From NCBI GenBank assembly GCA_023150805.1, contig JAKLKF010000008.1, positions 17,469 through 81,468 on the forward strand: a stretch of 64,000 bases of DNA, written 5' to 3'. Of this stretch, positions 27,863-47,858 are shown in pieces; position 1 is the first letter of the stretch, and each line of letters starts with the position of its first letter. Under the pieces are notes generated by a model. The model was not told the DNA's origin, ran no database searches, and saw only the letters and a list, made by a program, of their open reading frames with translations. The position numbers and the translations under genes are program-made. The stretch is from Myxococcota bacterium (lineage in GTDB: Bacteria; Myxococcota_A; UBA796; UBA2385).

Positions 27863-27866
<4 letters not shown>

Positions 27867-28672: not shown

Positions 28673-28735
28673 CCGGCCGCGCCCCCCTCCCGCCCCTGCT
28701 CCCCGCTCCCTCCCGCCGCCCCCGCGGAGCCCCCG

Positions 28736-31700: not shown

Positions 31701-32074
31701 TGGCGGCACGCAGCCGCTCCGGCGCCCTGCGCGACGGCTCCCTGGACGATGCCCGGGCCGCCGAGCGCGCGCTGCTGGAGGCCCTGGGCGACGGTCGCGC
31801 GGCCGACCCGGTCGCGACCCTGGGCGCCCGCGGCTTCTCCCGCCTCTCGCTCCACGAGGACAAGCTCCTCGGCGTGCGGGCCGACCTGGTCGCCTCCGGC
31901 GGCGCCCCGGTCCTCCCGGAGCTGCGCCTGGAGGCCGGCGCCCTGCTGCCGGTCGCCGTCCGCTTCGCCGGCCCGCCGGGCGCCACCGTGCACGTCGTCC
32001 ACCTGGCCGACGCCCGGCCCATCGGCGGGGTCACGGGGCTGCTGGCGGGGAGCGCGGGATGGACGCACCGCTGA
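28736..32074 (+). CDS. Subtilisin-like S8 serine peptidase, cytoplasmic (no signal peptide), with a large C-terminal extension
   Basis: 1112-aa ORF with GCGGAG upstream. Catalytic motifs GVVIGVVDFGLD (Asp), HGTHVACVAAGNG (His), VINLSL (Asn) and GSGTSLATAVVSGA (Ser). The C-terminal ~400 aa include a CARDB-like beta-sandwich segment (RVRVTVRNRGEADAHGVRVALGW). Confidence 0.9.
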   Translation: MPSSTDVLVDKLDPRLASLLRVTPQALLDLVDRDLRVGRDLDLRRQVLRPDLAQTFDDLHDEPDDGPRSPDGDPDEAVGARLAAFAARARAAIDARHGAVLGRTRASAAVATPVALSPLTTGVRKGLDGVARMRVLVRGDVTDEALGGDAVVRARAGRVALCELTPAQVRAVAALDGVEQVELARPVHAALDQVREELGMPGDGAAAAAADLPTGKGVVIGVVDFGLDLHHSELRRADGSSRVLGLWDQAAPEGPHGRRPAAGYGWEWDAADIAAELSGGAPPYAVVPHRWDRQGGHDPEVDGPAGGLWMRHGTHVACVAAGNGHSGLPGVRGIAPDAELLFVSLDPAVRLAGAEDLWGVAGVDRVVEGVKWILARADALQAERGQDLPVVINLSLADYTGPHDGHSNHQAFLDALQDLPGRIVVVAAGNANDQGGHVSRGLHPRGSVDPRGAHGATLALEVDEGAVADDACELWLEGLEDVALRLTIPGGDTTLSLPMGQAGADVVVTAGDRRVRLLAARVKRREAELQGIRVDILVEQGGLPTGTWALDLSGPGHQARELHAWLEWSNAGHRRWVDAVDGELTISDLGTHDALLVVGSTGKRLGGALSTPARHSGRGPTRDGRQKPDIAAPGNNLRLSEPHGRVHRGSGTGKEYLRGSGSGTSLATAVVSGACAVILECRGVPGQPAMLTTSELRQILRSTARREVGAPTGLRVDFEDGVHPAVGAGVLDLAAACRARRSAADLWSASSPKDEGVQPRAAPFFWVSPDIEVEPSGAPRGATPAGARVRVTVRNRGEADAHGVRVALGWGPPITWLPVDPDWLRRGEGPGWSRLRRGRDPGDGALAWSGEGVQADRTRSAVALVGRVPAGGRAVAEFEWAAPDDAPSAEQVAWFAMVSGGEDPDAGPFGRVVSASSHLLLRSRNEVATRSVVSLTPDADGQAELRLEVHGTPERDGLLLRGEGGARILSVHLPSQALPFYAGVPTALLAARSRSGALRDGSLDDARAAERALLEALGDGRAADPVATLGARGFSRLSLHEDKLLGVRADLVASGGAPVLPELRLEAGALLPVAVRFAGPPGATVHVVHLADARPIGGVTGLLAGSAGWTHR

Positions 32075-33705
32075 GCGGCGGGGGCGCGCGTCCGGCCGCC
32101 GGGCGGGCGGCCACGGGGCGCCAGGACCTCGCGCGCCGCGCGGAGCAGGCCCTCACCGGCGTCGCCGTCGTGGTGGTCGGCGTCGCGGCGGCCTGGGACC
32201 GGGTGGGGGACCTGTCCCGGGTGGCGGTGGACCGCGACTGGAGCTGGTTCCTGCGGGCCGGCGAGCAGCTCGCGCACGGCTACGACTGGGGCGGGCCGGT
32301 CATGTTCATGTACCCGCGGGCCTCCTCGGGCTTGATCGGCCTGCTGGGCAGGCTGCTGGACGGGCCCTGGGCCGCGGTGGCCGCCTTCACGGTGCTGTGC
32401 AGCCTGGCGATGCCGCTGTCCCTGCTGGCGGTCCGACAGGTGGCGGGCCTGCCCGCGGGCCTGGTCGCCGCCGGTGTGCTCTGGGTGTCGGCCAGCCAGC
32501 GGGCCATCGGCGTCGGCCTGAAGTCGCCCTACATGCTGCCGGCGGTCACGGCGCTGCTCGCCCTGGGGCTCGTCGCCTCCGCGCACCGGCGGCCCTGGGC
32601 CCTCCCGCTGGTCGCCTTCGCGGGCTCCGCGTCGGTGTGCCTGCACGTGGGGACCGGGCCGGCCGCGGTCTTCGCGGGCCTGCTGGCCCTGGGGGGCCTG
32701 CCGCTGCTGGCCGGCTGGCGGCAGCGCCTGGGCAGCGTGCTGGGCGCGGTCGCCGCCGGTGGACCGCTCTCGGCGTGGGTGCTCCTGGGGGATCTGCCCC
32801 GGCTGCTGGGCAGCCTGCGCAGCCACCAGGGCCGCAGCGTGGAGGGGGCCCAGCCGGTCCAGGAGCTGCTCCTGCGCCTCCAGCAGGGGCTGTCCCTGAC
32901 CCTGGAGACCGCCCGGCCCCTGGCCCTGGTCGCGGTCGCCGGCCTGGTCCTGGGCCTGGTCTGGGCCCTGCTGCCGGCCCCGGCGGAGCGCCTCGACGCC
33001 CGGCGGGCGCACCGCGCGCGGTGGTCGGGCAGCGTCCAGGTCCTCCTGCTTGCGGGGGTCCTGCTGGCGCCCTACCTCGAGAACCTGTACGCGCTGCGCT
33101 ACGCCGAGGTGCACCACTTCGTGGGGGCGGTCCCGCCGCTGGTGGTCGCGTTGGCCGGGCTGTCCGCCGCGATCCTGCCGCCCCGGGTGCGGGTCCTGGG
33201 CTGGCTGCTGGCGGCGGCCTCGTTGCTGCCCTGGCTGCGGGACGCGCGCGACATCGCGCCCTCGAGGCCGAGCACGCCGGTCGCGATGCACCTGGCCGCC
33301 CCCCTGCTGGACCTGGGCCAGGCCATGCGCGACCAGAGCGAGGGTCGGCAGCCCGTCGTCATCGCGCTCACGGACCAGCCCAGGGCCTCCGACCTGGAGC
33401 TGGTGTCCGTGGTCGCCACCGAGCTGCCCCAGCTCCGGCGCGCGGCGGTGCAGGGGCAGCCGCCCACCTGCTTCCTCCTGTTCCAGGGCGCGGTCCCTCC
33501 CTTCGCGCTGGCGCTGCCCGCGCTGTCCCTGCCCACCCTGCCCGGGCTGGACGTGCGCCACGACGAGGACTGCCAGGCCACCCGCGCGCAGGCGGCGACC
33601 TTCTGCCAGCCGGCGCCCGGCCAGACGCCCTTCTTCCGGCAGCCCTTCGGCCACCCGCTGGCGGAGGACGAGCTGCTGGGGGCATGTCCCCCGCGGCCGC
33701 GGTAG
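32059..33705 (+). CDS. Polytopic membrane protein (about 10-12 TM segments; GT-C glycosyltransferase-like topology is only a guess) with a C-terminal soluble domain
   Basis: Internal ATG of track ORF 28192..33705, overlapping the S8 gene by 16 nt. Many hydrophobic segments (GVAVVVVGVAAAW, AAVAAFTVLCSLAMPLSLLAV, LPAVTALLALGLVASA, LALVAVAGLVLGLVWALL, VLGWLLAAASLLPWL). Confidence 0.7.
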   Translation: MDAPLSGGGARPAAGRAATGRQDLARRAEQALTGVAVVVVGVAAAWDRVGDLSRVAVDRDWSWFLRAGEQLAHGYDWGGPVMFMYPRASSGLIGLLGRLLDGPWAAVAAFTVLCSLAMPLSLLAVRQVAGLPAGLVAAGVLWVSASQRAIGVGLKSPYMLPAVTALLALGLVASAHRRPWALPLVAFAGSASVCLHVGTGPAAVFAGLLALGGLPLLAGWRQRLGSVLGAVAAGGPLSAWVLLGDLPRLLGSLRSHQGRSVEGAQPVQELLLRLQQGLSLTLETARPLALVAVAGLVLGLVWALLPAPAERLDARRAHRARWSGSVQVLLLAGVLLAPYLENLYALRYAEVHHFVGAVPPLVVALAGLSAAILPPRVRVLGWLLAAASLLPWLRDARDIAPSRPSTPVAMHLAAPLLDLGQAMRDQSEGRQPVVIALTDQPRASDLELVSVVATELPQLRRAAVQGQPPTCFLLFQGAVPPFALALPALSLPTLPGLDVRHDEDCQATRAQAATFCQPAPGQTPFFRQPFGHPLAEDELLGACPPRPR

Positions 33706-34601: not shown

Positions 34602-35489
34602 CTACAGGCCGCAGGCCCCGCTGTCTCCCAGCTCCTCCGTCCAGCCCTCGCTGTCCCAGGACCAGGTCGCCTCGCCCGAGGACGACCAGCACTGGCGGAG
34701 CTGCACGGTCGCCGCGTACAGGTCCCCGCCCGACAGCCAGGCGTCGCCCCGGCCGGTGCCGTCGCTCAGCCAGCGGCTCTCGACCGTCAGCGCCTCGTCG
34801 CCGGCCCCGTGCAGCGCCGGTACCGCGTCCGCCGGCTGGCTGTGCGAAAGGCGCCCGCCCCCGTCGGCCTCCTCCGTCCAGGTCCACTGCTGGTCGATGG
34901 CGCCCCCGCCCAGGTCCAGCGCCGTCACCACGGCGCCGATGGTGGGCGTGTCCCGCAGGTCGTAGGTGATCGCGACCTCCCCCTGCCCGGTCGGATCGCG
35001 CCACCACACGGCGCCCTCGCCGAGCGCGACCTGCTCCTCGCCCACCTCGTGGCGCCCCTCCAGCAGCTCGGCCCAGGGTCCGGCCGAGGTCTCCGCCACC
35101 TGGAAGGCGTAGGTGTAGAGGGCCCCGGTCGAGGAGCGGCTCAGCTCCACCCGCAGGAACCAGTCGGGATTGTCCTCGTAGGGGAAGGGCCCCCACACCC
35201 GGTAGTCCTCGCCGCGCTCGGAGGGGGGCAACGCCAGCACCTGGGCGGTGGCGTCGGTGGCCAGGGCCAGCACCGCGCCGCCGACGCTCAGCGTCTGCAC
35301 GGTGATCGCGTACAGATCGGCGGGGTCCTCGACCACGCCCTCGGCCGGCGCCGGGTAGGACAGGGCGAGGTGCTGGTCGCTGGGCAGGGCGGCGGCGAAG
35401 TCGGCGTCGTCCAGGAACAGGTCGTTGGAGAAGGTGCTGCCGCAGGCCGACAGCAGCAGGACCAGGCCGGCGGCGGGCAGGGTGGTCAT
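34602..35489 (-). CDS. Lipoprotein, family L copy 1 (paralog of 45043..45993)
   Basis: Internal ATG (35489) of track ORF 34602..35852. Lipobox LLLSAC. Shares SRWL..G.GRGDA.L..G...CW and a C-terminal GACG/A with the 45043 gene. Its start overlaps the caspase gene stop by 1 nt. Confidence 0.75.
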   Translation of the reverse strand: MTTLPAAGLVLLLSACGSTFSNDLFLDDADFAAALPSDQHLALSYPAPAEGVVEDPADLYAITVQTLSVGGAVLALATDATAQVLALPPSERGEDYRVWGPFPYEDNPDWFLRVELSRSSTGALYTYAFQVAETSAGPWAELLEGRHEVGEEQVALGEGAVWWRDPTGQGEVAITYDLRDTPTIGAVVTALDLGGGAIDQQWTWTEEADGGGRLSHSQPADAVPALHGAGDEALTVESRWLSDGTGRGDAWLSGGDLYAATVQLRQCWSSSGEATWSWDSEGWTEELGDSGACGL

Positions 35490-37069
35490 CAGAAGCGGTA
35501 CCCCGCGGCCAGCAGGAGCTGGTGCATCGTGAACAGGGGCAGGTCCTCCTCCAGGGCGACCGGCACCAGGTGCTCGCGCCAGGACAGCTCGGCCTCCAGG
35601 CGGCGGTGGCGGACGCCGACCCAGGCGTCCATGCCCGGTGACAGCGTGGACAGTCGCTGGGCTGGCACCTGCTGGGTCGGGTCGAAGCTTCGGCCCAGCC
35701 ACAGCGCGTCGGCGCGCAGGCCGATGCCCGCCTGCACCGTGCGGGGCCGCGTCGCGTAGCCGGCGGCCGCGCCCAGGCCCGCCCCGGCCAGCCCGGCCGC
35801 CACCGTGCTGGTGTCGGTGATCGCCAGCGACCCGGCGCCGACCCCGCCCCACAGCTCGGCCGAGGCCCAGCGCCCGTCGCGCCAGTACAGTCGCCAGGTG
35901 GCGCTGGCCACCGGGATGTCGGGCAGCCAGGCGGCGCGCACCCGGGCCCCGTCGGCGCCCAGCACGCCCAGGCCCAGCCGCAGCGCCGTGTCCGGCAGCT
36001 CCGCCTGGCGGATCCGGGCCTCGATGGCGCCCTTGGCCTCGTCGTCCTCGTACTCCATCGCCGAGAAGGCCAGGCCCGCCGCGTCGATGGACTGTCCATC
36101 GCGCACGGTGACCTCGGCCACCTTCAGGTGGGTCGGCAGGCGCCGTCGCACCTGGTAGCGGCCCGGCGGCAGGTGCACGCGGCGGTCGGTCGGGGACTCG
36201 GCCACTTCGGCGACGTAGGCCCGGCGGTCCAGGTCGAAGATGGCGAAGGCGCCGTCCAGGTCGGGGCCGAAGGCCAGGCTGCCGCGGGACGGGTCCAGCT
36301 CGGCCAGGACCAGGTCGCCCTCGCCGGACAGGGCCCAGTCGAAGGTGGGGTGCTGGGTGCCGATGCGGGTGGCCGAGGTCCGCAGCACGGTCTCGTGGTA
36401 GACGAAGGCGTAGGCCTCCGACAGGGTGACGGCCCGGTCGCCGTCGGCGTCGGCGGCGCCGTACAGGCCGCTGGCCAGGTAGTGCGTGAAGTACGATCCG
36501 CCGATCTCGTCGGACTCCTGGCTGGCCTCGTCGCCCGTCGAGCTGGTGATGAAGACGGTGCCGCTGGTGCCCAGGCGCTCGGACAGCTTCACCTCGAAGG
36601 CCGGCACCCGGCTGCCCCCCTTGCTGCGGGTCGCCGCGCCGCTGTGACAGGCGTCGAGCAGGGCCAGCCGCACGTCGGCGCCGGTCTCGGCCAGCAGGCG
36701 CTCCAGCTCGTCGTAGTCCAGGCGGCTCTCGCCCATGAGCAGGGACTGTTCATCGCCGTGGCCCGACCAGTAGAACAGGAAGACCACCTCGTCGCCCTCG
36801 GCGTGGGCCCGGGCCACGGCGCGCCGGGCCTGGGCGAAGGCGTCCTGCACGCGGTCGGCCGTCGCCTCCCGCACCAGGTCGACGTCGGCCTCGTCGTAGC
36901 CGCCGACGTCGACCAGCACGTCGCGCAGCTTCCCGGCGTCGTCCTCGGCGAAGTACAGCGAGCGGTAGACCATCCCGGCGTCGTTGTTGGCGGCCACCAG
37001 GGCGAAGCGGCGCACCTCGGCCGCCGCCGGGCCGGCGAGGGAGAGCGCGAGCAGGGCCGGGCCGATCAC
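35489..37069 (-). CDS. Caspase-family (peptidase C14) protein with signal peptide and C-terminal beta-barrel-like domain
   Basis: GTG start overlapping the anti-sigma stop (GTGA). Signal IGPALLALSLAGPAAA. C14 dyad motifs VVFLFYWSGHGD and RLALLDACHSGA. The C-terminal ~170 aa are Gly/aromatic strand-rich and end AAGYRF, an OMP-like terminal Phe. Confidence 0.85.
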   Translation of the reverse strand: MIGPALLALSLAGPAAAEVRRFALVAANNDAGMVYRSLYFAEDDAGKLRDVLVDVGGYDEADVDLVREATADRVQDAFAQARRAVARAHAEGDEVVFLFYWSGHGDEQSLLMGESRLDYDELERLLAETGADVRLALLDACHSGAATRSKGGSRVPAFEVKLSERLGTSGTVFITSSTGDEASQESDEIGGSYFTHYLASGLYGAADADGDRAVTLSEAYAFVYHETVLRTSATRIGTQHPTFDWALSGEGDLVLAELDPSRGSLAFGPDLDGAFAIFDLDRRAYVAEVAESPTDRRVHLPPGRYQVRRRLPTHLKVAEVTVRDGQSIDAAGLAFSAMEYEDDEAKGAIEARIRQAELPDTALRLGLGVLGADGARVRAAWLPDIPVASATWRLYWRDGRWASAELWGGVGAGSLAITDTSTVAAGLAGAGLGAAAGYATRPRTVQAGIGLRADALWLGRSFDPTQQVPAQRLSTLSPGMDAWVGVRHRRLEAELSWREHLVPVALEEDLPLFTMHQLLLAAGYRF

Positions 37070-37782
37070 GGCGCCTTGCCGACGGAGAGGACGGCGACGC
37101 CGGGGTCGGTCTGCGCGAGGGAGGCCACGGCAGCCTGCCCGCCCCGGGCCTGGGCGGCCCGCACCATTGCGACGGCCTCGGCGGTGCTGGCCGGCCCGAA
37201 GACCGCGACGAACAGCTCGGGCCCCGGCGCGTCGTCCAGGGCCACGGCGTCCACCAGCAGGCCGCGCTGGTCGGGGTCGACCGGCACCGGGGGCTGCTCG
37301 ACCCGCTCGGGGTACAGCAGGCTGACCCGGCCCCGGCCGTCGACCGAGAGCACGACCACCTCCTCGTGGCCGTCGGCCTGGACGGCGAAGCGCACCCGGT
37401 CGCCCTGCGCCAGCACCTCGCCCTCCTCCACCTGCACCGCCTGGCCCCCGCGCTGCACGTACAGGTCCAGGTCGACCCGGCCCTTGGCCCGGTTGGCGCC
37501 GGGCTCGGGCAGCACGGCGACCAGGGCCAGTGCGGCGGCCAGCAGGGGGATCAGCAGCAGGGCCGGTCGCCAGGAGCGCCGGGGCGGGCGCGCGGCGGAC
37601 GGGGGCGGCCGGATCCGGTCCAGGTCCAGCGGGGGGAGGTCGGCGCGGGCCGCCTCCAGCTCGCGGGCGTGGCGGTGCAGGGCCAGGTGGTCGGCCAGGC
37701 CCAGGTCGGCCTCGCCCAGGAGCTGCCGCTCCAGGTCCAGCCGGGACGGGCGGTCGCCCTGGTTCAGGTCGAGGCGGATCAT
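37066..37782 (-). CDS. Anti-sigma factor, single-pass membrane protein with periplasmic DUF4384-like domain
   Basis: Internal ATG (37782) of track ORF 37066..38253; ATGA overlap with the sigma gene stop. N-terminus LDLERQLLGEADLGLADHLALHRHARELEA. TM WRPALLLIPLLAAALALVAVL. DUF4384-like GEVLAQGDRVRFAVQADGHEEVVVLSVDGRGRVSLLYP. Confidence 0.75.
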   Translation of the reverse strand: MIRLDLNQGDRPSRLDLERQLLGEADLGLADHLALHRHARELEAARADLPPLDLDRIRPPPSAARPPRRSWRPALLLIPLLAAALALVAVLPEPGANRAKGRVDLDLYVQRGGQAVQVEEGEVLAQGDRVRFAVQADGHEEVVVLSVDGRGRVSLLYPERVEQPPVPVDPDQRGLLVDAVALDDAPGPELFVAVFGPASTAEAVAMVRAAQARGGQAAVASLAQTDPGVAVLSVGKAP

Positions 37783-38330
37783 GGCAGCACCAGGAGCAAC
37801 AGCGCCGCGCCCGCCGCCACCAGGGGGCCGGCCTTCTGCTGCGCGCGGGCCAGGAAGTCGTTCAGCCGCTTGCGCACGGTGGGCACCGAGAGGCCCACCA
37901 GCCGCGCCGTCTCCTCCTTGCTCAGGTCGTCGAAGAACAGGTGCACGACGATGGCCTGGGTCTGCTCCTCCTCGTCCTGGAGCAGGGCGCGCACCGTGTC
38001 GCGGTCCTCCCACCGCTCGGCGCTGAGCACCCTGCCGGACAGCCCCTCCAGCAGCGCGTGGTGGCGGTCCTGCTTGTCGGCGCGGCCCCGGCGGTTGCGG
38101 AGCTGGTTGAGGCACCAGTTCGTCGAGATGCGGTACATCCAGGTCAGGGGCGAGGCGTCCTGGCGGAAGCCGTCCCAGTGCTGCACCACGCGGGCGAAGG
38201 TCTCCTGCACGGCGTCCATGGCCTCCTCCTCGTCGCCGAGGATCCGCCGGCACCGGTGGAGGATGACGGGCCCGTAGCGCTCGTAGAGGTGGCGCAGCTC
38301 GGGGTCGGTCGGGGGCATCGGCGGCTCCAT
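37779..38330 (-). CDS. ECF-type RNA polymerase sigma-70 family factor
   Basis: 183-aa ORF. Region 2 (EEAMDAVQETFARVVQHWDGFRQDASPLTWMYRISTNWCLNQLR) and region 4 HTH (LSKEETARLVGLSVPTVRKRL). Confidence 0.9.
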   Translation of the reverse strand: MEPPMPPTDPELRHLYERYGPVILHRCRRILGDEEEAMDAVQETFARVVQHWDGFRQDASPLTWMYRISTNWCLNQLRNRRGRADKQDRHHALLEGLSGRVLSAERWEDRDTVRALLQDEEEQTQAIVVHLFFDDLSKEETARLVGLSVPTVRKRLNDFLARAQQKAGPLVAAGAALLLLVLP

Positions 38331-38385
38331 CAGGTTGGACCCACGGGCGCGCAGGATCGGAAAGGGCCGGTGCAGGCGGGCGCGA

Positions 38386-38964
38386 TCAGCCGCCGGATCG
38401 GTCGGGTCCCAGCGCCATGCCGACGCCGAGGTCGAGCTGGCCGTAGACCGCGGGGCCGCGGTCGTCGGGGAAGCCGACGGCGGCGGCCTCGGCCCAGGCG
38501 GAGAAGCGGCCCTCGGTCTCGTGCGGCAGCAGGGTGGCGCGCAGGCCCAGGGCGACCTCGCCGCCGCTGCGGTGGCGGATGCCGGGGGCCGAGCCGACGG
38601 TGGACTCCAGCGGGCGCTCGGTCAGCACCTCCCACGGCGTCTCGTGGCTGTGGACGAAGCCCACGCGGGCGTAGGGCACGCCGGGCTCCCAGCGCGCTCC
38701 CAGGCTGATCTGCGTCACCTCGCGCAGGTCGTTGGCCAGCAGCCCGGTGCGGCCGCCCAGGTCGACGGCGAAGTCGCCGACGTGGAACAGCGCCCGCACG
38801 CCGCCGAAGCCGCCGCCGGTGGTGCCGTGCAGGGCGACGTCGGAGGAGGAGGCCGGGCCGACCGCGCCACCCAGGCTCAGGCCCAGGGTGACGGGGTGGT
38901 CGGGCGCGGATCCACCGTCGGCGGCGCGGGCCGGGGTCATCAGGGCGAGCAGCAGCAGGGGCAT
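38386..38964 (-). CDS. Secreted Gly-rich beta-strand protein (possible small outer-membrane beta-barrel)
   Basis: 192-aa ORF with an ATG start and GGAG upstream. Signal MPLLLLALMTPARA. Alternating-pattern strands. Confidence 0.55.
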   Translation of the reverse strand: MPLLLLALMTPARAADGGSAPDHPVTLGLSLGGAVGPASSSDVALHGTTGGGFGGVRALFHVGDFAVDLGGRTGLLANDLREVTQISLGARWEPGVPYARVGFVHSHETPWEVLTERPLESTVGSAPGIRHRSGGEVALGLRATLLPHETEGRFSAWAEAAAVGFPDDRGPAVYGQLDLGVGMALGPDRSGG

Positions 38965-40537: not shown

Positions 40538-42235
40538 TCACGCGTCGGCCTCCTCGTCCCGGGCACCGCTGGCCGGCGGCGAGGGGGCCCCGGCGGCGAA
40601 GTCGGCCAGGCGCTCGACGAAGGCGTCGACGTGCTTGCGCGGCAGGGGGATCGCGCTGTGGTCCCAGTCGGGCAGCAGGGCGGCGTGCAGCAGGGCCTTG
40701 CGCTGGCGGCCCGGGGGCACCAGGGAGACCCGCGCGCAGACCGCCCGCAGGGCCTCGGTGTGGTCGTCCAGGCCCCCGTCCGCCAGGTGCTCGCGCAGGC
40801 GGGTGTAGCCCCGGCTGCGCAGGGCCAGGGTGCCCGGATCGGCCAGGTGGTCGGGGGCCTCGGCCAGGTAGCGGTAGAAGCGCGCCGACAGGCCGCGGCC
40901 GCCGCCGGTGAGCCAGGCCTCCAGGTCGGGCCAGCAGCCGCGCCCCAGCAGGTTGAGCAGCAGGGTCGTCACGGCCGGCGCCGCGGTGTCGGGCAAGGGC
41001 GGCAGGGGCGGCGCGGCGGGCTCGGGCAGCTCGCAGGCCGGCGGCCGCATGCGGTCGGGGTCGAAGCCGAAGCCGACGCGGGCCTCGCGCCAGGCCCAGT
41101 CCCAGGCGTAGCGGGCCAGGGCGGCGGCGGTGCGGGCGCGCAGGCCGGGCAGGGCCAGGACGGCGTCGCGCAGGCGCTCGGGCTCGGCGCGGGCGACCAC
41201 GCGCAGGCGGCCGCGGATGCGGGACCGGTTGGCACGCACGACGGCCCAGCCGGGCAGCCCCAGCTCGTGCTCGACCGCGCGGCCCTCGCAGAGCGAGGCC
41301 GACACCCGCAGGGCGACGACCAGCTCGACGCCCTCGGCCAGCAGGTCGGGGGACAGCCGCGCCGGGTCGGGATCGCCGTCGCCCAGCAGCAGGCGCCAGG
41401 CCTCGGTCCAGGCGCTGCGCCCGCGGACGCAGGCCGCGACCTGCTCCCAGCCCGCCGGCCCCAGCGCCCCGGCCAGCGCGGCGACCGGCTCGCCCCGCGT
41501 CTCCACCAGGCGGGCCGCCAGGTCGACGTGGGCGCCCCAGGACAGCGTCTCCAGCGCCTCCAGCGCCTGCTCGGCCCGCAGGTCGGCCACCGAGGGGGGC
41601 AGGCCCAGCGACAGGGCCACGCCGCGGAAGGACCGCCGCACCTCGGGGCCGAAGGCCTTGCGCACGCGGTCGGCCACGCCGGGATCGAAGCCGCGGTCGA
41701 ACATCGCCGCCCACAGTCGGCCCGTCGCCTCGTCCCGCGGGTCCGCCGGGAAGGAGGCGGCCGACCAGGCCCGCCGCTCGCGCAGGGCCACCTCCTCGCC
41801 GAGCCGGGCCAGCAGGTACAGCCCCGCGGCGTCCAGGGCCGGCCCCGGCACCGGCTCGGCGGCCGGGTCGGCGGCGGCGCGGCGGGCGGCCTCCAGCGCC
41901 AGTCGGTCCCACTCCGCCTCGGGCAGGGGGGCCGGGGGCGGGTCCGGCGGGTCGCCGAAGGCCCACAGGGCCAGCGCCCGGGTCTGCGAGCTGTCGGCCA
42001 CCCGCAGGCCCTCGACCACCGCGGTCACCACCCCGGGGCGGCGGGCCCAGGTCCAGCTCTCCAGCAGGCTGTCGGCCGCCTTGGGGCGGCGGATCGCCCG
42101 GCGCGCCAGGCCGGCCCGCAGGTCGCGCAGGGTCAGCCAGCGGGCCAGGTCCAGGTCGGGGACCGAGGGGCCCGGAGAGGACGGGTCGCCGTCCGGCGGG
42201 TCGGCAGGAGGGGGCGGGCGAGGGGTCGCGGTCAC
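40538..42235 (-). CDS. Hypothetical protein, family X copy 2 (about 565 aa); paralog of 22054..23682
   Basis: C-terminal part of track ORF 40538..43450; further upstream that ORF is antisense to real plus-strand genes. The proposed GTG start at 42235 is uncertain. Collinear similarity to 22054..23682. Confidence 0.6.
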   Translation of the reverse strand: MTATPRPPPPADPPDGDPSSPGPSVPDLDLARWLTLRDLRAGLARRAIRRPKAADSLLESWTWARRPGVVTAVVEGLRVADSSQTRALALWAFGDPPDPPPAPLPEAEWDRLALEAARRAAADPAAEPVPGPALDAAGLYLLARLGEEVALRERRAWSAASFPADPRDEATGRLWAAMFDRGFDPGVADRVRKAFGPEVRRSFRGVALSLGLPPSVADLRAEQALEALETLSWGAHVDLAARLVETRGEPVAALAGALGPAGWEQVAACVRGRSAWTEAWRLLLGDGDPDPARLSPDLLAEGVELVVALRVSASLCEGRAVEHELGLPGWAVVRANRSRIRGRLRVVARAEPERLRDAVLALPGLRARTAAALARYAWDWAWREARVGFGFDPDRMRPPACELPEPAAPPLPPLPDTAAPAVTTLLLNLLGRGCWPDLEAWLTGGGRGLSARFYRYLAEAPDHLADPGTLALRSRGYTRLREHLADGGLDDHTEALRAVCARVSLVPPGRQRKALLHAALLPDWDHSAIPLPRKHVDAFVERLADFAAGAPSPPASGARDEEADA

Positions 42236-42292
42236 GCCGCGAGCGTAGCAACGGCCCGCCGCGATAGGCCACCCGCTCGCACCGGAGGTCCC

Positions 42293-43033: not shown

Positions 43034-43061
43034 CGCCGCGGTGCCGACGCTATCCTGTGTC

Positions 43062-43934: not shown

Positions 43935-44011
43935 GACGCCGGCCGGCCGAGGAGCACCCGGCCCGCGGCGCGCGGCGGGCTGGGTGCTCCACGGCCGGCT
44001 ACGTGGGGACC

Positions 44012-44974: not shown

Positions 44975-45042
44975 GCCTCCTCTTTCCGTTCCGCCGGCGT
45001 CGCGGGTCTGACTGTGCGGACCTGGAACGCAAGGAGCACCCC

Positions 45043-45993
45043 ATGGACCATCGCCCCGCCTCCTCTCCCCACCTCTCTGCCCTCCTGCCCCTCGCCATCG
45101 CGCTCTCCGCCTGCTCGGCCTCGACCGATGACCTGACCGGGGTGCTGCCCGACGACCGGGTGCTCGTGAACCTGGACACCTCGGGCGCCCAGGCCTTCGC
45201 CGCGCGGGCCGAGCTGGGCGAGTGGTCGGAGTTCTACCTGCAGACCGCGGAGACGACCGACAACGTCAACGGGCTCATCGGCAACGTGCTGACGCTGGTC
45301 GACACGCTGGTGCACCTGGAGCCCACCTCCGTCAACCGCCGGCAGCACACGGCGACCTGGGGCCCCTACAGCGACACGCTGGACCCGGTCGAGACCCGGC
45401 TGACGGTGGCCTACGACGCCGAGACCGACGTGCACACCTGGTGGTTCGACCAGTGGCCCAAGGGCGGGGACGGGAGCGACCCCACGGTGGTCGTCGCGGG
45501 CGAGGTGGACGCGGGCGCGACGCGCGAGGACAACACCGGGCGCTTCGTGGTCGACTTCACCGCCATCGCCGCGCTGGACCCGACCGCCGACGCGTCGGGC
45601 ACCTTCGTGAGCGAGTACGACATCGACCCTGACGGCGTGGCCGCCGCGGCCGTCTTCCAGGACTGGGTGGACCTGGACCACCCCGCCGACCCCGTCGACG
45701 CCGCCTACGTCTACGAGCAGACCGACGCGGGCGACGGGTCGATGGACCTGGCCTGGCAGGCCGACTACCTGGAGGACGGCACGCTGGACGTCTACGTGCT
45801 GCGCAGCCGGTGGCTGGCCACGGGCGCCGGCCGCGGGGACGCCGTGCTGGCCGAGGGCGGCGAGGAGCTGCTGGGCGCCGCCAGCGAGTGCTGGGACGAG
45901 GGCTTCGACCTGGTCTATCGGGCCAGCTCCTGGGAGGGTGAGCAGGGCGAGGTCGGCGCCTGCGCCTTCTCCGAGGCGGCCTGGCCGGAGTAG
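45043..45993 (+). CDS. Lipoprotein, family L copy 2 (paralog of 34602..35489)
   Basis: Internal ATG with AAGGAG 6 nt upstream. Lipobox AIALSAC. Shared motifs with 34602..35489 (TWGPY/VWGPF, SRWLATGAGRGDAVLAEGG, GACAF). Confidence 0.75.
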   Translation: MDHRPASSPHLSALLPLAIALSACSASTDDLTGVLPDDRVLVNLDTSGAQAFAARAELGEWSEFYLQTAETTDNVNGLIGNVLTLVDTLVHLEPTSVNRRQHTATWGPYSDTLDPVETRLTVAYDAETDVHTWWFDQWPKGGDGSDPTVVVAGEVDAGATREDNTGRFVVDFTAIAALDPTADASGTFVSEYDIDPDGVAAAAVFQDWVDLDHPADPVDAAYVYEQTDAGDGSMDLAWQADYLEDGTLDVYVLRSRWLATGAGRGDAVLAEGGEELLGAASECWDEGFDLVYRASSWEGEQGEVGACAFSEAAWPE

Positions 45994-46019: not shown

Positions 46020-47858
46020 ATGCCGGCCATGCACCTGCTCCTGCCCGCCCTGCTGCTGTCCTGCTCGGACTATGGCTTCAACCCCGGCAAGCCCGACAAC
46101 CTGGACGACACGGGCGCGCCCGACGGACCGGTGGACGACTGCGCGGACATGGTCGATCCGGGCACCTACCGGGTGACGGTGGACGAGCGCTGCCTGAACG
46201 AGCCGGGGGTCGGCAGCTTCTCGCCCGTGGTCGAGTGGCAGTGGCAGGAGAACCCGGTGCACCCGGGCTACGACGACATCATGGCGACCCCCGTCATCGC
46301 CAACCTGTCCGACGACGACGGCGACGGGGACGTGGACCAGGACGACGTCCCGGACATCTGCTTCACCTCCTTCGCCAGCGGGGCCTACACCTCGCCGGGC
46401 GCGCTCACCTGCATCTCCGGTGACGGCAGCGGGACCCTCTGGTCGATCACCTCCGCCGGAGGACACGGGGTCTACGGCTCGGGCGGGGTGGCCATCGGCG
46501 ACCTGGAGGGCGACGGCTCGCCCGACGTCTGCGTCGCCAGCACCAGCAACGCCGTGCTGTGCCTGGAGCGGGACGGCAGCTTCAAGTGGGCCGGCGGGGT
46601 CGAGGTCAGCTACGTCGGCTGCCCGGCCATCGCCGACCTGGACGGCGACGGCCGGGCCGAGGTGCTCTACGGCCGGGAGATCCTCTCCTCGCGGGGGGAG
46701 CTGCGGGCGACCGGGGCCGCCGGCAGCGGCTACAAGATGTCCTTTGCCGCCGACATGGACGGCGACGGCGACCAGGAGGTCGTCGCGGGGAACACGGTCT
46801 ACCACCACGACGGCAGCGTGCTGTGGCAGGCGGCGACCAGCGACACGATGGGCGCGGTGGGCGACTTCGACCTGGACGGGCGGCCCGAGGTCGTGCTGGG
46901 GGGTGGCGGGCTGGTGACCCTGGTGGGCAACGACGGGGTCGTGCGCTGGTCGGTCTCGGTCCATGGCGGCGGCAACGGGGGCCCGCCGACCATCGCCGAC
47001 TTCGACGGCGACGGCCTGCCCGAGGTGGGGGTGGCCGGCGCCAGCTACTACACGGTCTACGACACCGACGGCGCCGTGCTGTGGGCCCAGCCGGTCAGCG
47101 ACTACAGCAGCAACGTGACCGGCTCGTCGGTCTTCGACTTCGAGGGCGACGGCGCGGCCGAGGTGGTCTACGCCGACGAGCACACGCTGTGGGTCTACGA
47201 CGGGGCGACGGGCGCCATCGAGCTGTCCGAGGCCGGGCACGCCTCGGGCACGCTCTACGAGTACCCGCTGGTGGCCGACGTGGATCACGACGGCAGCACC
47301 GAGATCATCCTGGCCAGCAACGACTACGGCATCGACGGCTGGAACGGCATCACGGTCATCGGGGACGCCTCCTCGACCTGGGCGCCGGCCCGGCCCGTGT
47401 GGAACCAGTTCGCCTACCAGATCACCAACGTGGACAACGACGGCGGCATCCCGGCGGCGCCGGAGGAGAACTGGTTGACGTGGAACAGCTTCCGGGCGGG
47501 CGGCACCGAGCTGGGCCCCTCGCACTGGCTGGCGGACCTGCGGCCGGCCGAGCCCAGCCGCTGCCTGGACCTGTGCGCGGCGGACCTGGTGGTGCTGTAC
47601 GTGCCCGTCGAGAACGGCGGCCTGCTGGGGACCCGCGACTTCCAGGTCTCGCTGGTGACCGCCGAGGGCGAGGTGGCCTGGTCGGAGTCGGTGGAGGGCC
47701 TGGAGGCGGGCGCGGGCACCTGGCTGGGGCCGATCGAGATCGGGGAGCGCGCCTGGGGCCGGGGCGAGCTGTCCCTGGTGGTCGACGACCTCGACGGGGT
47801 CGACGAGTGCGACGAGCGGGACAACGCGCGGGAGCTGGGGACCTGGCCCTGCGAGTGA
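46020..47858 (+). CDS. FG-GAP/VCBS repeat (integrin-alpha-like beta-propeller) lipoprotein
   Basis: Lipobox LLLSCSD. Repeated DxDGDGxxE motifs (IGDLEGDGSPDV, IADLDGDGRAEV, AADMDGDGDQEV, VGDFDLDGRPEV, IADFDGDGLPEV, VFDFEGDGAAEV, VADVDHDGSTEI). Start is either ATG 46020 or ATG 46029; the latter lies 7 nt downstream of TAGGAT. Confidence 0.85.
   Translation: MPAMHLLLPALLLSCSDYGFNPGKPDNLDDTGAPDGPVDDCADMVDPGTYRVTVDERCLNEPGVGSFSPVVEWQWQENPVHPGYDDIMATPVIANLSDDDGDGDVDQDDVPDICFTSFASGAYTSPGALTCISGDGSGTLWSITSAGGHGVYGSGGVAIGDLEGDGSPDVCVASTSNAVLCLERDGSFKWAGGVEVSYVGCPAIADLDGDGRAEVLYGREILSSRGELRATGAAGSGYKMSFAADMDGDGDQEVVAGNTVYHHDGSVLWQAATSDTMGAVGDFDLDGRPEVVLGGGGLVTLVGNDGVVRWSVSVHGGGNGGPPTIADFDGDGLPEVGVAGASYYTVYDTDGAVLWAQPVSDYSSNVTGSSVFDFEGDGAAEVVYADEHTLWVYDGATGAIELSEAGHASGTLYEYPLVADVDHDGSTEIILASNDYGIDGWNGITVIGDASSTWAPARPVWNQFAYQITNVDNDGGIPAAPEENWLTWNSFRAGGTELGPSHWLADLRPAEPSRCLDLCAADLVVLYVPVENGGLLGTRDFQVSLVTAEGEVAWSESVEGLEAGAGTWLGPIEIGERAWGRGELSLVVDDLDGVDECDERDNARELGTWPCE

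What the first reader, a model, noticed from the sequence alone, without database searches (positions are those of the whole stretch)
34602..38330. Four-gene fully overlapping operon: ECF sigma, DUF4384 anti-sigma, caspase fused to an outer-membrane-type beta-barrel, and a lipoprotein
Seen in sequence: the minus-strand genes 38330-37779 (ECF sigma), 37782-37066 (anti-sigma with a TM segment and GDRVRFAVQADGHEEVVVLSVDGRGRVSLLYP), 37069-35489 and 35489-34602 (LSAC lipoprotein) are chained by ATGA, GTGA and 1-nt overlaps.

The third gene (37069-35489) has a signal peptide, C14 dyad motifs YWSGHGD and LLDACHSGA, and a Gly/aromatic-rich C-terminal domain ending AAGYRF.

Established knowledge: a C-terminal aromatic residue and alternating strands are typical of outer-membrane beta-barrels. 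DUF4384 frequently accompanies caspase-like and kinase proteins.

Inference: this is an envelope-located caspase-like protease whose expression is wired to its own ECF / anti-sigma switch. It is a possible extracytoplasmic proteolytic signalling or lysis module. Together with the CHAT cluster, it puts two caspase-clan systems with DUF4384-like partners within 18 kb. The lipoprotein has a paralog at 45043-45993, next to an FG-GAP lipoprotein.
Basis: partly seen in the sequence, partly recalled or inferred. Interest (0 to 1): 0.6.

Follow-up and report, generated by a model that had tools for sequence, protein, structure and literature searches.

The report
Outer-membrane caspase with its own sigma switch
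An uncultured myxobacterium carries a tightly packed, widely conserved gene set in which a caspase-like protease anchored in the outer membrane is encoded with its own sigma/anti-sigma switch and two related lipoproteins, which suggests, but does not prove, that a caspase-type enzyme carries a signal across the cell envelope.

Summary
Four minus-strand genes (ECF sigma, single-pass anti-sigma-like protein, Peptidase_C14 protein, lipoprotein) are joined by ATGA, GTGA and TGATG overlaps, and GC3 is 0.97-0.99 in the called frames.

- **Caspase protein:** AlphaFold2 (pLDDT 87) gives signal peptide, caspase fold, beta-sandwich, then an 8-stranded barrel. The barrel matches OmpA/OmpX/Ail (TM 0.61-0.71) and ends in a conserved Y-R-F beta-signal. 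The His/Cys dyad is invariant in 77/77 relatives and aligns with metacaspase YSGHG/DSCHSG.
- **Conservation:** The four-gene order recurs in about 80 Myxococcota MAG loci, down to 32% caspase identity.

New findings:
1. A conserved ECF-type promoter, TTTC-N17-GGGTC, lies upstream of sigma in 52/72 loci.
2. The same motif occurs only once more in the 64 kb window, in front of the paralogous lipoprotein gene at 45043. That gene is physically linked to the cassette in other genomes.
3. An R-x-K-G motif is conserved both just outside the anti-sigma membrane helix and next to the caspase catalytic Cys.
4. The sigma has a hydrophobic C-terminal tail.

Most likely this is an autoregulated envelope signalling module. 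The Arg/Lys-specific caspase may cleave the anti-sigma, but that step is untested. Sigma-metacaspase operons in myxobacteria were noted in 2012, so I rate this a new variant of a known kind.

The parts
38338..38363 (-). ECF-type promoter of the operon: -35 cCTTTCC, 17-nt gap from TTTC, -10 GGGTCCAA
   Evidence: The motif [CTG]TTT[CG]-N17-G[GT]GT[CT] lies upstream of sigma in 52 of 72 related loci. The gap is exactly 17 nt in 47 of them, and shuffled sequences give about 1 of 72. Flanking columns that the search pattern did not enforce are also conserved: T four nt before GGGTC, and AA after it. The pattern occurs only twice in the window, against 0.07 expected.
37779..38330 (-). ECF sigma factor (183 aa as called; the start is probably ATG 38318, giving 179 aa), with a hydrophobic C-terminal tail at residues ~168-183
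   Evidence: Sigma70_r2 6e-18, Sigma70_r4_2 1.8e-5, TIGR02937 9e-23. The nearest solved relatives are SigW, SigH, SigL and RpoE. Orthologue N-termini begin MP(P/A)T(D/E)xE. The hydrophobic tail is present in 54 of 75 orthologues.
37066..37782 (-). Single-pass membrane protein, putative anti-sigma factor. It has an N-terminal cytoplasmic segment (NxGxRPSRLxLxRxxxGE), a TM helix at ~73-91, the juxtamembrane motif R98-A-K100-G101, and a periplasmic DUF4384-like domain.
   Evidence: ATGA overlap with sigma. DUF4384 is weak: 17.6 bits here, and 10 of 16 homologues give weak hits. NCBI names the identical protein 'DUF4384 domain-containing protein [Myxococcota bacterium]'. Divergent orthologues at the same position carry HVDGCARC and match zf-HC2 at 7.7e-4. 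K/R100 is conserved in 72 of 73.
35489..37069 (-). Exported metacaspase/orthocaspase-like protease fused to an outer-membrane barrel. The layout is signal peptide 1-17, caspase fold ~19-235 (H104, C141), beta-sandwich 242-338, helix 344-357, and an 8-stranded barrel 360-526 ending GYRF.
   Evidence: Peptidase_C14 1e-11. AlphaFold2 gives pLDDT 87.3 and pTM 0.78. Foldseek matches OmpA, Ail, OmpX and NspA for the barrel and legumain and metacaspases for the protease domain. H104, C141, D139 and D44 are invariant. The profile aligns with metacaspase YSGHG and DSCHSG. The C-terminal beta-signal is conserved.
36617..36628 (-). R148-S-K150-G151 motif in the low-confidence loop seven residues after the catalytic Cys. 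It is a candidate autoprocessing or regulatory site.
   Evidence: R in 70/77, K in 75/77, G in 75/77. The loop has pLDDT 51-63. The motif is retained in all clades.
34602..35489 (-). Lipoprotein (lipobox LSAC, Cys16) with no fold match in the PDB by Foldseek: two long helices followed by ~13 beta strands, and two invariant C-terminal Cys residues
   Evidence: No hit in Pfam, NCBIfam or PADLOC. Cys16, C267 and C293 are conserved in 69-70 of 70. AlphaFold2 gives pLDDT 88.4. Foldseek finds no PDB neighbour: best E = 5.5e-3, TM 0.27 or lower.
44983..45008 (+). Second copy of the same promoter motif (cTCTTTCC-N-GGGTCtga), 35 nt upstream of the paralogous lipoprotein gene
   Evidence: This is the only other match in the 64 kb window, against 0.07 expected. 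The sequence, with AAGGAG before the ATG, is shown. The same motif precedes the paralog's orthologues in L002 and L003.
45043..45993 (+). Paralogous lipoprotein (lipobox LSAC), a probable regulon member
   Evidence: 24% identity to the operon lipoprotein, E = 9e-7, with shared invariant W-G-P, G-R-G-D-A, C-W and C motifs. Orthologues lie directly after the cassette (L002), nearby (L003), or as the first gene ahead of sigma (L055, L058, L064, L075, L078, L067).
46020..47858 (+). FG-GAP repeat lipoprotein, 26 nt downstream of the paralog. It is possibly co-transcribed, but its link to the system is not conserved elsewhere.
   Evidence: FG-GAP_3 2.9e-29. No homologue was found in the related loci at E = 1e-4.

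Best explanation
This is an autoregulated envelope signalling module with five parts.

**The parts**
- An ECF sigma factor.
- A single-pass membrane anti-sigma factor whose DUF4384-like domain faces the periplasm.
- A metacaspase/orthocaspase-type cysteine protease. It is exported by a signal peptide and held on the periplasmic face of the outer membrane by its own C-terminal 8-stranded OmpA-like barrel.
- Two paralogous lipoproteins with no fold match in the PDB.

**What is shown**
- The gene order and the translational coupling.
- The domain identities.
- The intact catalytic dyad and an acidic S1 pocket of the Arg/Lys-specific metacaspase type.
- The barrel and its beta-signal.
- A conserved promoter, TTTC-N17-GGGTC, in front of the sigma operon and in front of the paralogous lipoprotein gene.

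**What is inferred**
1. At rest, the anti-sigma holds the sigma at the inner membrane.
2. An envelope signal, probably read or gated by the lipoproteins, lets the caspase cut the anti-sigma in the periplasm. The favoured site is after K100 of the conserved juxtamembrane R-x-K-G. The same tetrapeptide sits next to the caspase's own catalytic Cys, which suggests autoprocessing.
3. This cut plays the part of the site-1 cleavage in regulated intramembrane proteolysis.
4. The freed sigma then transcribes its own operon and the paralogous lipoprotein, giving positive feedback.

The confidence given below is for this specific cleavage mechanism. The general statement, an ECF-autoregulated module built around an outer-membrane-anchored periplasmic caspase, I hold at about 0.85.
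For: - **Linkage:** Sigma, anti-sigma, caspase and lipoprotein stay in that order in nearly all of ~80 loci, down to 32% caspase identity. Junctions are mostly -4 or -1 nt.
- **Same compartment:** The caspase has a signal peptide and an OmpA-like barrel, whose N-terminus by the topology of such barrels faces the periplasm. The anti-sigma has four Arg before its TM helix and its DUF4384-like domain after it.
- **Active enzyme:** H104, C141, D139, S102 and D44 are invariant or nearly so. They align with YSGHG, DSCHSG and the 'ND' Asp of solved metacaspases. These are the positions that form the proposed S1 pocket of TbMCA2 (PMC4357240).
- **Shared motif:** R-x-K-G is conserved just outside the anti-sigma TM helix (K/R in 72/73) and seven residues after the catalytic Cys (K in 75/77). 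It holds in all clades and is absent from the sigma and lipoprotein families.
- **Anti-sigma identity:** Divergent orthologues at the same position carry HxxxCxxC and match zf-HC2 at 7.7e-4.
- **Autoregulation and regulon:**
- **Precedent:** In type III-E CRISPR systems the caspase-clan protease Csx29 cleaves Csx30, which binds an ECF sigma. [quoted passage not shown] DUF4384 is also an accessory domain of cyanobacterial orthocaspases (PMC7475262).
Against: - No cleavage, binding, localisation or transcription has been measured. Every organism that carries the module is an uncultured MAG.
- Geometry is a problem. The caspase is joined to its barrel by only a short helix (344-357), and the R-x-K-G site is about 10 residues from the inner-membrane helix. 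Direct contact therefore needs a narrow periplasm, local membrane apposition, or release of the caspase from its anchor.
- The R-x-K-G next to the catalytic Cys could be an active-site loop feature rather than a cleavage site.
- DUF4384 is below threshold here. The window's anti-sigma lacks the zinc motif, and no solved relative was found.
- Being co-encoded fits equally well with the caspase being an output of the sigma rather than its activator.
Confidence: 0.4

Rival explanations
1. The caspase is an output, not a regulator. The sigma/anti-sigma pair senses an envelope signal by other means, for example a conventional site-1 protease encoded elsewhere. It then induces the outer-membrane-anchored caspase and the lipoproteins. 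These act as effectors that process outer-membrane or periplasmic proteins for remodelling, quality control, developmental lysis or programmed cell death.
For: The caspase and both lipoproteins are transcribed from the sigma's own promoter motif, as regulon effectors usually are. The geometry argument favours substrates at the outer membrane. A cell-death role for the myxobacterial sigma-metacaspase operons was suggested in PMC3501461.
Against: This does not explain the R-x-K-G motif shared by the anti-sigma and the caspase. It does not explain why the caspase gene always sits directly after the anti-sigma gene with overlapping codons. It also ignores the DUF4384-protease association seen in other systems. 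A lethal effector under positive feedback would need tight control, and none is evident.
Confidence: 0.3
2. The lipoprotein is the direct substrate or gatekeeper. The caspase cleaves one of the two paralogous outer-membrane lipoproteins, or is inhibited or adapted by it as in Prc-NlpI or CtpA-LbcA. The released fragment, or the freed partner, is what the DUF4384-like domain of the anti-sigma senses.
For: Both lipoproteins are invariably linked to the cassette and share its promoter. They would sit at the same membrane as the caspase, which solves the distance problem. They have invariant Arg residues (R92, R113, R247) and a disulfide pair typical of exported proteins.
Against: There is no R-x-K-G in the lipoprotein family. 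The fold gives no functional clue. No evidence of interaction exists. The comparison with Prc-NlpI and CtpA-LbcA rests on my own knowledge, not on any tool result.
Confidence: 0.15
3. The protease is surface-displayed. The C-terminal barrel exports the caspase and sandwich to the cell surface, as an autotransporter does, where the protease acts on prey, kin or matrix proteins.
For: The order passenger, helix, C-terminal barrel looks superficially like a type Va autotransporter. Many Myxococcota are predators.
Against: The barrel has 8 strands and matches OmpA, OmpX, Ail and NspA, not 12-stranded autotransporter barrels. From general knowledge of barrel structures, an 8-stranded barrel has no lumen for a passenger. 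A surface protease could not reach the periplasmic domain of the co-encoded anti-sigma.
Confidence: 0.07
4. It is an anti-phage or conflict system of the caspase-effector type, such as the EACC-associated caspases or a gasdermin-activating protease.
For: There are weak hits to NCBIfam caspase_w_EACC1 (69 bits) and the PADLOC caspase model (8.9e-7). ECF sigmas accompany some EACC2-caspase systems (PMC8195603).
Against: The NCBIfam score is far below its cutoff of 140. No NTPase, EACC, gasdermin, CRISPR or other defence gene lies in the conserved cassette. The flanks differ between genomes. The protease is exported, unlike those cytoplasmic systems.
Confidence: 0.04

Closest known systems
Sigma-70-family/metacaspase operons of myxobacteria (Asplund-Samuelsson et al. 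2012, PMC3501461)
   Same: That survey found that four of the five M. xanthus DK1622 metacaspases lie in predicted operons with sigma-70-family factors. It saw the same configuration in Anaeromyxobacter, Haliangium, Sorangium, Ralstonia and Fibrobacter. The present cassette is very probably a branch of this association.
   Different: The survey reported only the co-occurrence. It did not describe an outer-membrane barrel, the anti-sigma/DUF4384 partner, the lipoproteins, a promoter or a mechanism. I could not retrieve the M. xanthus genes, so orthology is untested.
Regulated intramembrane proteolysis of anti-sigma factors (RseA-DegS-RseP with sigma-E; RsiW-PrsW with sigma-W)
   Same: An ECF sigma is held by a single-pass anti-sigma, and activation is proposed to start with a periplasmic site-1 cut close to the membrane. 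The sigma gene is autoregulated. The description of these systems rests on my own knowledge.
   Different: The proposed site-1 enzyme is a clan CD cysteine protease anchored in the outer membrane and encoded in the operon. The known site-1 enzymes are inner-membrane serine or metalloproteases encoded elsewhere. No site-2 protease was identified here.
Cell-surface signalling (FecA-FecR-FecI and TonB-dependent transducers)
   Same: Three tiers span the envelope: an outer-membrane barrel protein with an N-terminal periplasmic domain, an inner-membrane anti-sigma with a periplasmic domain, and an ECF sigma. The genes are clustered. The description of this system rests on my own knowledge.
   Different: The barrel here has 8 strands with no plug or TonB box. 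Its periplasmic domain is a protease rather than a signalling domain. The anti-sigma has no FecR domain.
Type III-E CRISPR 'Craspase' (Cas7-11-Csx29 cleaving Csx30 bound to the ECF sigma RpoE)
   Same: A caspase-clan protease cuts a sigma-binding protein to change the activity of an ECF sigma. Some Csx30 proteins carry a C-terminal DUF4384 domain.
   Different: That system is cytoplasmic, RNA-triggered and CRISPR-linked, and its protease is a TPR-CHAT protein. The present module is extracytoplasmic, has no CRISPR genes, and its protease is a Peptidase_C14 protein fused to an outer-membrane barrel.
Orthocaspases and type I metacaspases (MaOC1, TbMCA2, Yca1)
   Same: The His-Cys dyad sits in SGH and D-x-C-x-S-G contexts, acidic S1 residues are conserved, and the caspase/hemoglobinase fold is recovered. 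There is no recognisable separate p10 domain, as in orthocaspases.
   Different: This protein is exported and carries a beta-sandwich and a membrane barrel. The cyanobacterial survey I read (PMC7475262) describes orthocaspases as cytoplasmic or anchored by transmembrane helices.
Lipoprotein-adapted periplasmic proteases (Prc-NlpI, CtpA-LbcA)
   Same: A periplasmic protease is paired with a dedicated outer-membrane lipoprotein partner. This comparison rests on my own knowledge.
   Different: Those lipoproteins are TPR proteins and the proteases are serine C-terminal processing proteases. Here the lipoproteins are helix-plus-beta proteins with no fold match in the PDB.

Membership tests
ECF (group IV) sigma-70 factors | Only the sigma-2 and sigma-4 domains, ~180-200 aa | tested here: met
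   Sigma70_r2 6e-18. TIGR02937 scores 80.7 bits against a cutoff of 42.9. Sigma70_r4_2 scores 24.7 bits, just under 25.7. Length is 183 aa. The nearest solved relatives are SigW, SigH, SigL and RpoE.
ECF (group IV) sigma-70 factors | Autoregulated bipartite promoter upstream of its own operon | tested here: met
   TTTC-N17-GGGTC is present in 52 of 72 orthologous upstream regions, against about 1 in shuffles. Transcription itself was not tested.
Class I / zinc-binding anti-sigma factors | N-terminal anti-sigma domain with HxxxCxxC, encoded directly downstream of the sigma, usually with one TM helix | tested here: inconclusive
   Position +1, the ATGA overlap and a single TM helix are all met. 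The window protein has no HxxxCxxC and no Pfam anti-sigma hit. Divergent orthologues at the same position have HVDGCARC and match zf-HC2 at 20.0 bits against a cutoff of 22.2.
Class I / zinc-binding anti-sigma factors | Binds and inhibits the cognate sigma | not testable with these tools
   This needs co-purification, a two-hybrid assay or a complex prediction.
DUF4384 (PF14326) | Score at or above the Pfam gathering cutoff of 27 bits | tested here: not met
   The window protein scores 17.6 bits (E = 4e-3). Ten of 16 homologues give weak hits, the best at 4e-4, and none reaches the cutoff. NCBI nevertheless names the identical protein 'DUF4384 domain-containing'. I therefore call it DUF4384-like.
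Peptidase C14 (caspase/metacaspase/orthocaspase, clan CD) | Pfam match above the cutoff, and the caspase/hemoglobinase fold | tested here: met
   PF00656 scores 45.3 bits against a cutoff of 21.4. Foldseek matches legumain, metacaspases and caspase-6 at E = 1e-5 to 4e-7.
Peptidase C14 (caspase/metacaspase/orthocaspase, clan CD) | Catalytic His-Cys dyad correctly aligned | tested here: met
   H104 and C141 are invariant in 77/77. The profile aligns fyYSGHa with FHYSGHG, and aflDaCqsG with ALFDSCHSG, of Candida glabrata metacaspase 7QP0.
Peptidase C14 (caspase/metacaspase/orthocaspase, clan CD) | Arg/Lys specificity (metacaspase type) and proteolytic activity | not testable with these tools
   The acidic and Ser positions equivalent to the proposed TbMCA2 S1 pocket (D44, S102, D139) are conserved. 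Activity and specificity need biochemistry.
NCBIfam NF047832, caspase of the EACC1-associated type | Score at or above the curated cutoff of 140 bits | tested here: not met
   69 bits. No EACC1 or NTPase partner is present in the cassette.
OmpA/OmpX-like 8-stranded outer-membrane beta-barrels | Eight long antiparallel strands forming a closed barrel similar to solved members | tested here: met
   The AlphaFold2 model has eight strands between residues 360 and 525, with pLDDT mostly above 90. Foldseek gives OmpA 9fzc at E = 9.5e-8 and TMt 0.71, and Ail, OmpX and NspA at TMt 0.61-0.68. No Pfam barrel family matches.
OmpA/OmpX-like 8-stranded outer-membrane beta-barrels | N-terminal signal peptide and C-terminal beta-signal (alternating hydrophobic residues, terminal aromatic) | tested here: met
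   A hydrophobic N-terminus ending in AxA precedes the conserved VRRFA strand across the family. At the C-terminus, position -1 is F/W/L in 74/77 and position -3 is Y/F/W in 61/77, with hydrophobic residues at -5, -7 and -9.
OmpA/OmpX-like 8-stranded outer-membrane beta-barrels | Actual insertion in the outer membrane | not testable with these tools
   This needs cell fractionation or a heat-modifiability assay.
Bacterial lipoproteins | Signal peptide with a lipobox [LVI][ASTG][GA]C | tested here: met
   The window protein has LLSAC-G. The Cys is invariant in 70/70, and a strict lipobox pattern is found in 53/70, with near-matches in most of the rest. The paralog has ALSAC-S.
Type III-E CRISPR Craspase module | Cas7-11 and a CRISPR array next to a TPR-CHAT protease, Csx30, Csx31 and RpoE | tested here: not met
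   No such genes occur in the cassette or its flanks. It may work like that system, but it is not a member.
FecIRA-type cell-surface signalling | TonB-dependent 22-stranded transducer and a FecR-domain anti-sigma | tested here: not met
   The barrel has 8 strands, and there is no FecR, DUF4880 or DUF4974 match above noise.

The most novel reading that the evidence does not exclude
This may be a periplasmic 'caspase relay'. An outer-membrane-tethered, Arg/Lys-specific caspase would be the dedicated site-1 protease of an inner-membrane anti-sigma factor, cutting at a conserved juxtamembrane R-x-K-G that copies its own autoprocessing loop.

Neither partner has a long linker. Cleavage could therefore happen only when the two membranes come close together or when the lipoprotein gate opens. 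The module would then read the geometry or integrity of the envelope.

In the window's clade the sigma also carries a hydrophobic C-terminal tail, so it may itself be tethered to the membrane. If all this holds, it would be the first assigned substrate and physiological role for an exported bacterial caspase homologue.
Probability: 0.25. Interest if true: 0.8.

Novelty: new variant of a known kind. Interest (0 to 1): 0.6.

Why it matters
Bacterial caspase homologues (metacaspases and orthocaspases) are abundant, but as far as I know almost none has a known substrate or role. This module offers a concrete, testable pairing.

- **Defined candidates:** an exported caspase, a co-encoded candidate substrate (the anti-sigma factor) with a predicted cleavage site, a defined promoter read-out, and two candidate regulators (the lipoproteins).
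- **If the caspase activates the sigma:** this would add a cysteine protease of the caspase clan to the enzymes that start regulated proteolysis of anti-sigma factors. It would also be an extracytoplasmic counterpart of the CRISPR 'Craspase' logic.
- **Protein architecture:** the protease-sandwich-8-stranded-barrel layout is, to my knowledge, an undescribed way to hold an enzyme on the inner face of the outer membrane. The C-terminal profile alone finds 2382 protein clusters, so the layout is not rare.

Tried and rejected
- **Defence-system reading.** PADLOC gave only a weak caspase hit, the NCBIfam EACC1-type caspase scored far below its cutoff, and no defence partners were found. Rejected.
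- **Caspase beta-sandwich as a second DUF4384.** hhalign of the anti-sigma profile against the C-terminal profile found nothing (E = 0.65). Rejected.
- **DUF4384-like partners in the CHAT cluster** (23738-24316 and 24443-25030). hhalign gave E = 0.015 and 0.087 with probability 3% or less. Not confirmed.
- **Solved relatives of the anti-sigma.** None found.
- **Finding the M. xanthus or Ralstonia counterparts.** The plasmid tblastn returned only cyanobacterial caspases. Two cluster look-ups of distant representatives returned no organism names. Whether the cultured-myxobacterium operons share the barrel therefore remains open.
- **Literature on an ECF group with a caspase or DUF4384 neighbourhood.** Only ECF54-CHAT and EACC2-caspase contexts turned up. 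No paper on M. xanthus, metacaspase and ECF together was found.
- **Upstream gene 38386-38964.** It is not conserved next to the cassette, so it is excluded from the system.
- **Sigma-70-type promoters and intrinsic terminators.** The scan found none, as expected at 75% GC.

Full report
**1. The observation**

The window has about 75% GC.
- sigma, 38330-37779
- a 238-aa membrane protein, 37782-37066
- a 526-aa Peptidase_C14 protein, 37069-35489
- a 295-aa lipoprotein, 35489-34602

The reverse-strand sequence shows the three junctions as ccATGAtc, ccGTGAtc and ttcTGATGacc. Third-codon-position GC is 0.97-0.99 in the called frames, and second-position GC is 0.42-0.54. That is the pattern expected of real genes in such a genome.

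Domain searches give the following:
- Sigma: Sigma70_r2 at 6e-18 and TIGR02937 ECF at 9e-23.
- Caspase: Peptidase_C14 at 1e-11, above its cutoff.
- Membrane protein: only a sub-threshold DUF4384 match, 17.6 bits against a cutoff of 27.
- Lipoprotein: nothing.

A gene map based on GC3 shows a convergent acyl-CoA thioesterase gene ending 9 nt beyond the lipoprotein gene. It also shows an unrelated small gene ending 55 nt upstream of sigma.

**2. Source and conservation**

Identical anti-sigma and lipoprotein sequences are on record in NCBI. They come from a 'Myxococcota bacterium' MAG on a 104-kb contig.

The caspase protein has more than 300 homologues in the protein collection. Nearly all are full length, at 515-545 aa. 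A scan of one genome per species found relatives in 158 stretches. All of these are metagenome-assembled Myxococcota or 'Deltaproteobacteria', apart from some MAGs with obviously placeholder names.

I ran tblastn with the four window proteins against the 80 fetched loci. The order sigma, anti-sigma, caspase, lipoprotein is kept wherever the flanks are present, down to 32-38% caspase identity. The junctions are tight across the family:

| Junction | Gap of -8 to +10 nt | Commonest gap |
|---|---|---|
| sigma / anti-sigma | 63 of 69 | -4 (52 loci) |
| anti-sigma / caspase | 68 of 72 | -4 (43 loci) |
| caspase / lipoprotein | 59 of 70 | -4, +2 and -1 |

The flanking genes differ between genomes. 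The cassette is therefore the conserved unit. Two MAGs carry two copies each.

**3. The caspase protein**

A 39-sequence alignment has H104 and C141 invariant. In the 77 sequences taken from the loci, both are conserved in 77/77. So are D139 and G144, along with the motif S-Q-E-S-D-E.

A profile of the family aligns to solved metacaspases as follows:
- 'LyfaedDa' aligns with LRGCINDA.
- 'fyYSGHa' aligns with FHYSGHG.
- 'aflDaCqsG' aligns with ALFDSCHSG.

The aligned D44, S102 and D139 correspond to Asp95, Ser156 and Asp211. Those residues form the proposed S1 pocket of TbMCA2 (PMC4357240). That points to cleavage after Arg or Lys, which is an inference.

AlphaFold2 on the alignment gives pLDDT 87.3 and pTM 0.78. 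The model has these parts:
- an N-terminal hydrophobic helix, the signal peptide
- a caspase fold, residues 19-235
- a beta-sandwich, residues 242-338
- a helix, residues 344-357
- eight long strands between residues 360 and 525

Foldseek against the PDB returns two groups of hits. For the C-terminal part the best is the OmpA transmembrane domain (E = 9.5e-8, TMt 0.71), followed by Ail, OmpX and NspA (TMt 0.61-0.68). For the N-terminal part it returns legumain, metacaspases and caspase-6.

The C-terminus is a textbook beta-signal. Position -1 is F/W/L in 74/77, position -3 is Y/F/W in 61/77, and positions -5, -7 and -9 are hydrophobic.

In barrels of this type both termini face the periplasm, as is established for OmpA-type barrels. 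The protease domain should therefore hang from the inner face of the outer membrane.

A profile of the C-terminal 287 residues finds 2382 clusters at 50% identity with E of 1e-3 or better. Most are proteins of ~510-560 aa that match over residues ~245-530, and those I sampled begin with Peptidase_C14. The architecture is common but, as far as I could find, undescribed.

**4. The anti-sigma-like protein**

Its family shares these features:
- an N-terminal motif, NxGxRPSRLxLxRxxxGE
- an Arg-rich stretch before a single hydrophobic helix
- a ~140-residue C-terminal domain with weak DUF4384 similarity (10 of 16 members)

No solved relative was found.

In a divergent clade (L067, L068, L070, L072, L076) tblastn had missed this gene. 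There, the ORF between sigma and caspase encodes a 229-aa protein with HVDGCARC, which is the HxxxCxxC signature. It matches zf-HC2 at 7.7e-4, has a TM helix, and then again has R-S-K-G. This supports the anti-sigma assignment for the operon position as a whole.

**5. A shared R-x-K-G motif**

In 73 anti-sigma orthologues, the residue aligned to K100 is K in 66 and R in 6. It lies about 10 residues beyond the TM helix. G101 is conserved in 64 and R98 in 57.

In 77 caspases, R148 is conserved in 70, K150 in 75 and G151 in 75. These lie seven residues after the catalytic Cys, in the only low-confidence loop of the model (pLDDT 51-63).

The motif survives in every clade in both proteins. It never occurs in the sigma or lipoprotein families. 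I read it as a candidate recognition or cleavage site for an Arg/Lys-specific enzyme. That is an inference. It could instead be an active-site loop feature whose resemblance to the anti-sigma motif is coincidental.

**6. Promoter and regulon**

Upstream of sigma, 52 of 72 loci carry [CTG]TTT[CG]-N17-G[GT]GT[CT]. The spacing is exactly 17 nt in 47 of them, and shuffled sequences give about 1 of 72.

Columns outside the search pattern are also conserved. There is a T-rich stretch before the -35 element, a T four nt before GGGTC in 41 of 47, and AA after GGGTC(C).

In the window the motif is at 38363-38338. Its -10 element ends 7 nt before the first ATG. Orthologue N-termini and a GGAG six nt upstream indicate that the real start is the second ATG, at 38318.

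The pattern TTTC-N17-GKGTC occurs only twice in the 64 kb window, against 0.07 expected. The second copy, at 44983-45008 (+), lies 35 nt upstream of the paralogous lipoprotein gene and is followed by AAGGAG and the ATG.

The same pairing recurs in other genomes:
- In L002 the paralog's orthologue (61% identity) lies directly after the cassette, behind its own copy of the motif.
- In L003 the orthologue is also preceded by the motif.
- In L055, L058, L064, L075, L078 and L067 the orthologue is the first gene ahead of sigma. A variant motif (TTTC-N17-GTGTT or GTGTC) lies upstream of it, and there is no motif directly before sigma.

The system therefore has five conserved genes. The FG-GAP lipoprotein that follows the paralog in the window is not conserved elsewhere.

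**7. The lipoproteins**

The lipobox Cys and two C-terminal Cys residues are invariant. The AlphaFold2 model is confident (pLDDT 88.4). It shows two long helices and about 13 strands. It has no significant PDB neighbour by Foldseek (best E = 5.5e-3, TM 0.27 or lower). Their role is unknown. Sensor, gate, adaptor and substrate are all possible.

**8. Mechanism**

The best-supported reading is an autoregulated ECF module in which the outer-membrane-anchored periplasmic caspase passes on an envelope signal by proteolysis. The anti-sigma is the favoured substrate, for five reasons:
- the two genes are strictly linked
- the two proteins share a compartment
- the S1 pocket is acidic
- both carry the R-x-K-G motif
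- there is a precedent in other systems, described next

In the Craspase system the caspase-clan protease Csx29 cleaves Csx30, which binds an ECF sigma. [quoted passage not shown] DUF4384 is also an accessory domain of cyanobacterial orthocaspases.

The main counter-argument is geometric. Neither protein has a long linker, so an outer-membrane enzyme would struggle to reach a site ~10 residues from the inner membrane. It would need the periplasm to narrow or the protease to be released. For this reason the 'effector output' and 'lipoprotein substrate' rivals keep substantial weight.

**9. Comparison with what is known**

Sigma-70-family/metacaspase operons were reported in 2012 in M. xanthus (four of its five metacaspases), Anaeromyxobacter, Haliangium, Sorangium, Ralstonia and Fibrobacter (PMC3501461). 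No mechanism was proposed, and no barrel, anti-sigma, lipoproteins or promoter were described. I could not fetch those genes to test orthology.

The ECF reclassification paper does not mention caspase or DUF4384 contexts in its main text. A review notes CHAT proteins near ECF54.

The module works like a hybrid of two known schemes: regulated proteolysis of anti-sigma factors, and Fec-type trans-envelope signalling. It fails the membership tests for Fec-type systems, for Craspase and for EACC-type caspase systems. I rate it a new variant of a known kind.

**10. Also seen**

In the window's clade, 54 of 75 sigma orthologues end in a 15-25-residue hydrophobic tail after region 4. The tail is absent from the divergent clade, whose anti-sigma has the zinc motif. 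It may tether the sigma to the membrane. This remains unexplained.

Noticed in passing
window 37782-37829 (-), the C-terminus of the sigma factor: The sigma ends in a hydrophobic tail (…QQKAGPLVAAGAALLLLVLP) after region 4. In 54 of 75 orthologues, the last 32 residues contain a 15-residue stretch with mean Kyte-Doolittle hydropathy of 1.6 or more. The tail is missing in the divergent clade whose anti-sigma carries HxxxCxxC. It may be a tail anchor or a membrane tether for the sigma itself.
   Followed up: partly
window 38316-38330 (-): The sigma probably starts at the second ATG (38318), not at 38330. Orthologues begin MP(P/A)T(D/E)xE, and a GGAG lies six nt upstream. The -10 element ends only 7 nt before the first ATG.
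   Followed up: partly
window 20527-33705 (+): A separate cluster holds a CHAT-domain protein (20527-21981; 30.6 bits), two ~190-aa proteins with anti-sigma-like N-termini (23738-24316 and 24443-25030), a Ser/Thr kinase (25167-27866) and a large S8 subtilase (28736-32074). The claimed DUF4384-like partners were not confirmed (hhalign E = 0.015 and 0.087).
   Followed up: partly
window 38386-38964 (-), 16248-16778 (-), 60075-60611 (+), 60652-61167 (+): Four small (~170-190 aa) Gly-rich proteins have signal peptides. The two I scanned have no Pfam hit. Two end in aromatic C-termini (…IRYYF…, …HIRYVF), so they may be small outer-membrane barrels. The one directly upstream of sigma is not conserved next to the cassette in other genomes.
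   Followed up: partly
window 44003-44974 (+): An ankyrin-repeat protein is encoded immediately upstream of the second promoter motif and the paralogous lipoprotein gene.
   Followed up: no
window 40538-43234 (-): A long ORF (898 aa) has no Pfam match and a lower GC3 (0.90) than its neighbours. Whether it is a real gene is uncertain.
   Followed up: no
L005 + L015 (one MAG, CAZFLE01); L023 + L051 (one MAG, CAYFPX01): Some genomes carry two diverged copies of the whole sigma, anti-sigma, caspase, lipoprotein cassette. This echoes the four sigma-metacaspase operons reported for M. xanthus.
   Followed up: no
L002 5761-8697 (-): In the closest relative with long flanks, the paralogous lipoprotein is followed by a convergent ~980-aa ORF. 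By eye it looks like a kinase/AAA/TPR-type regulator. The window has a different neighbour at this position.
   Followed up: no
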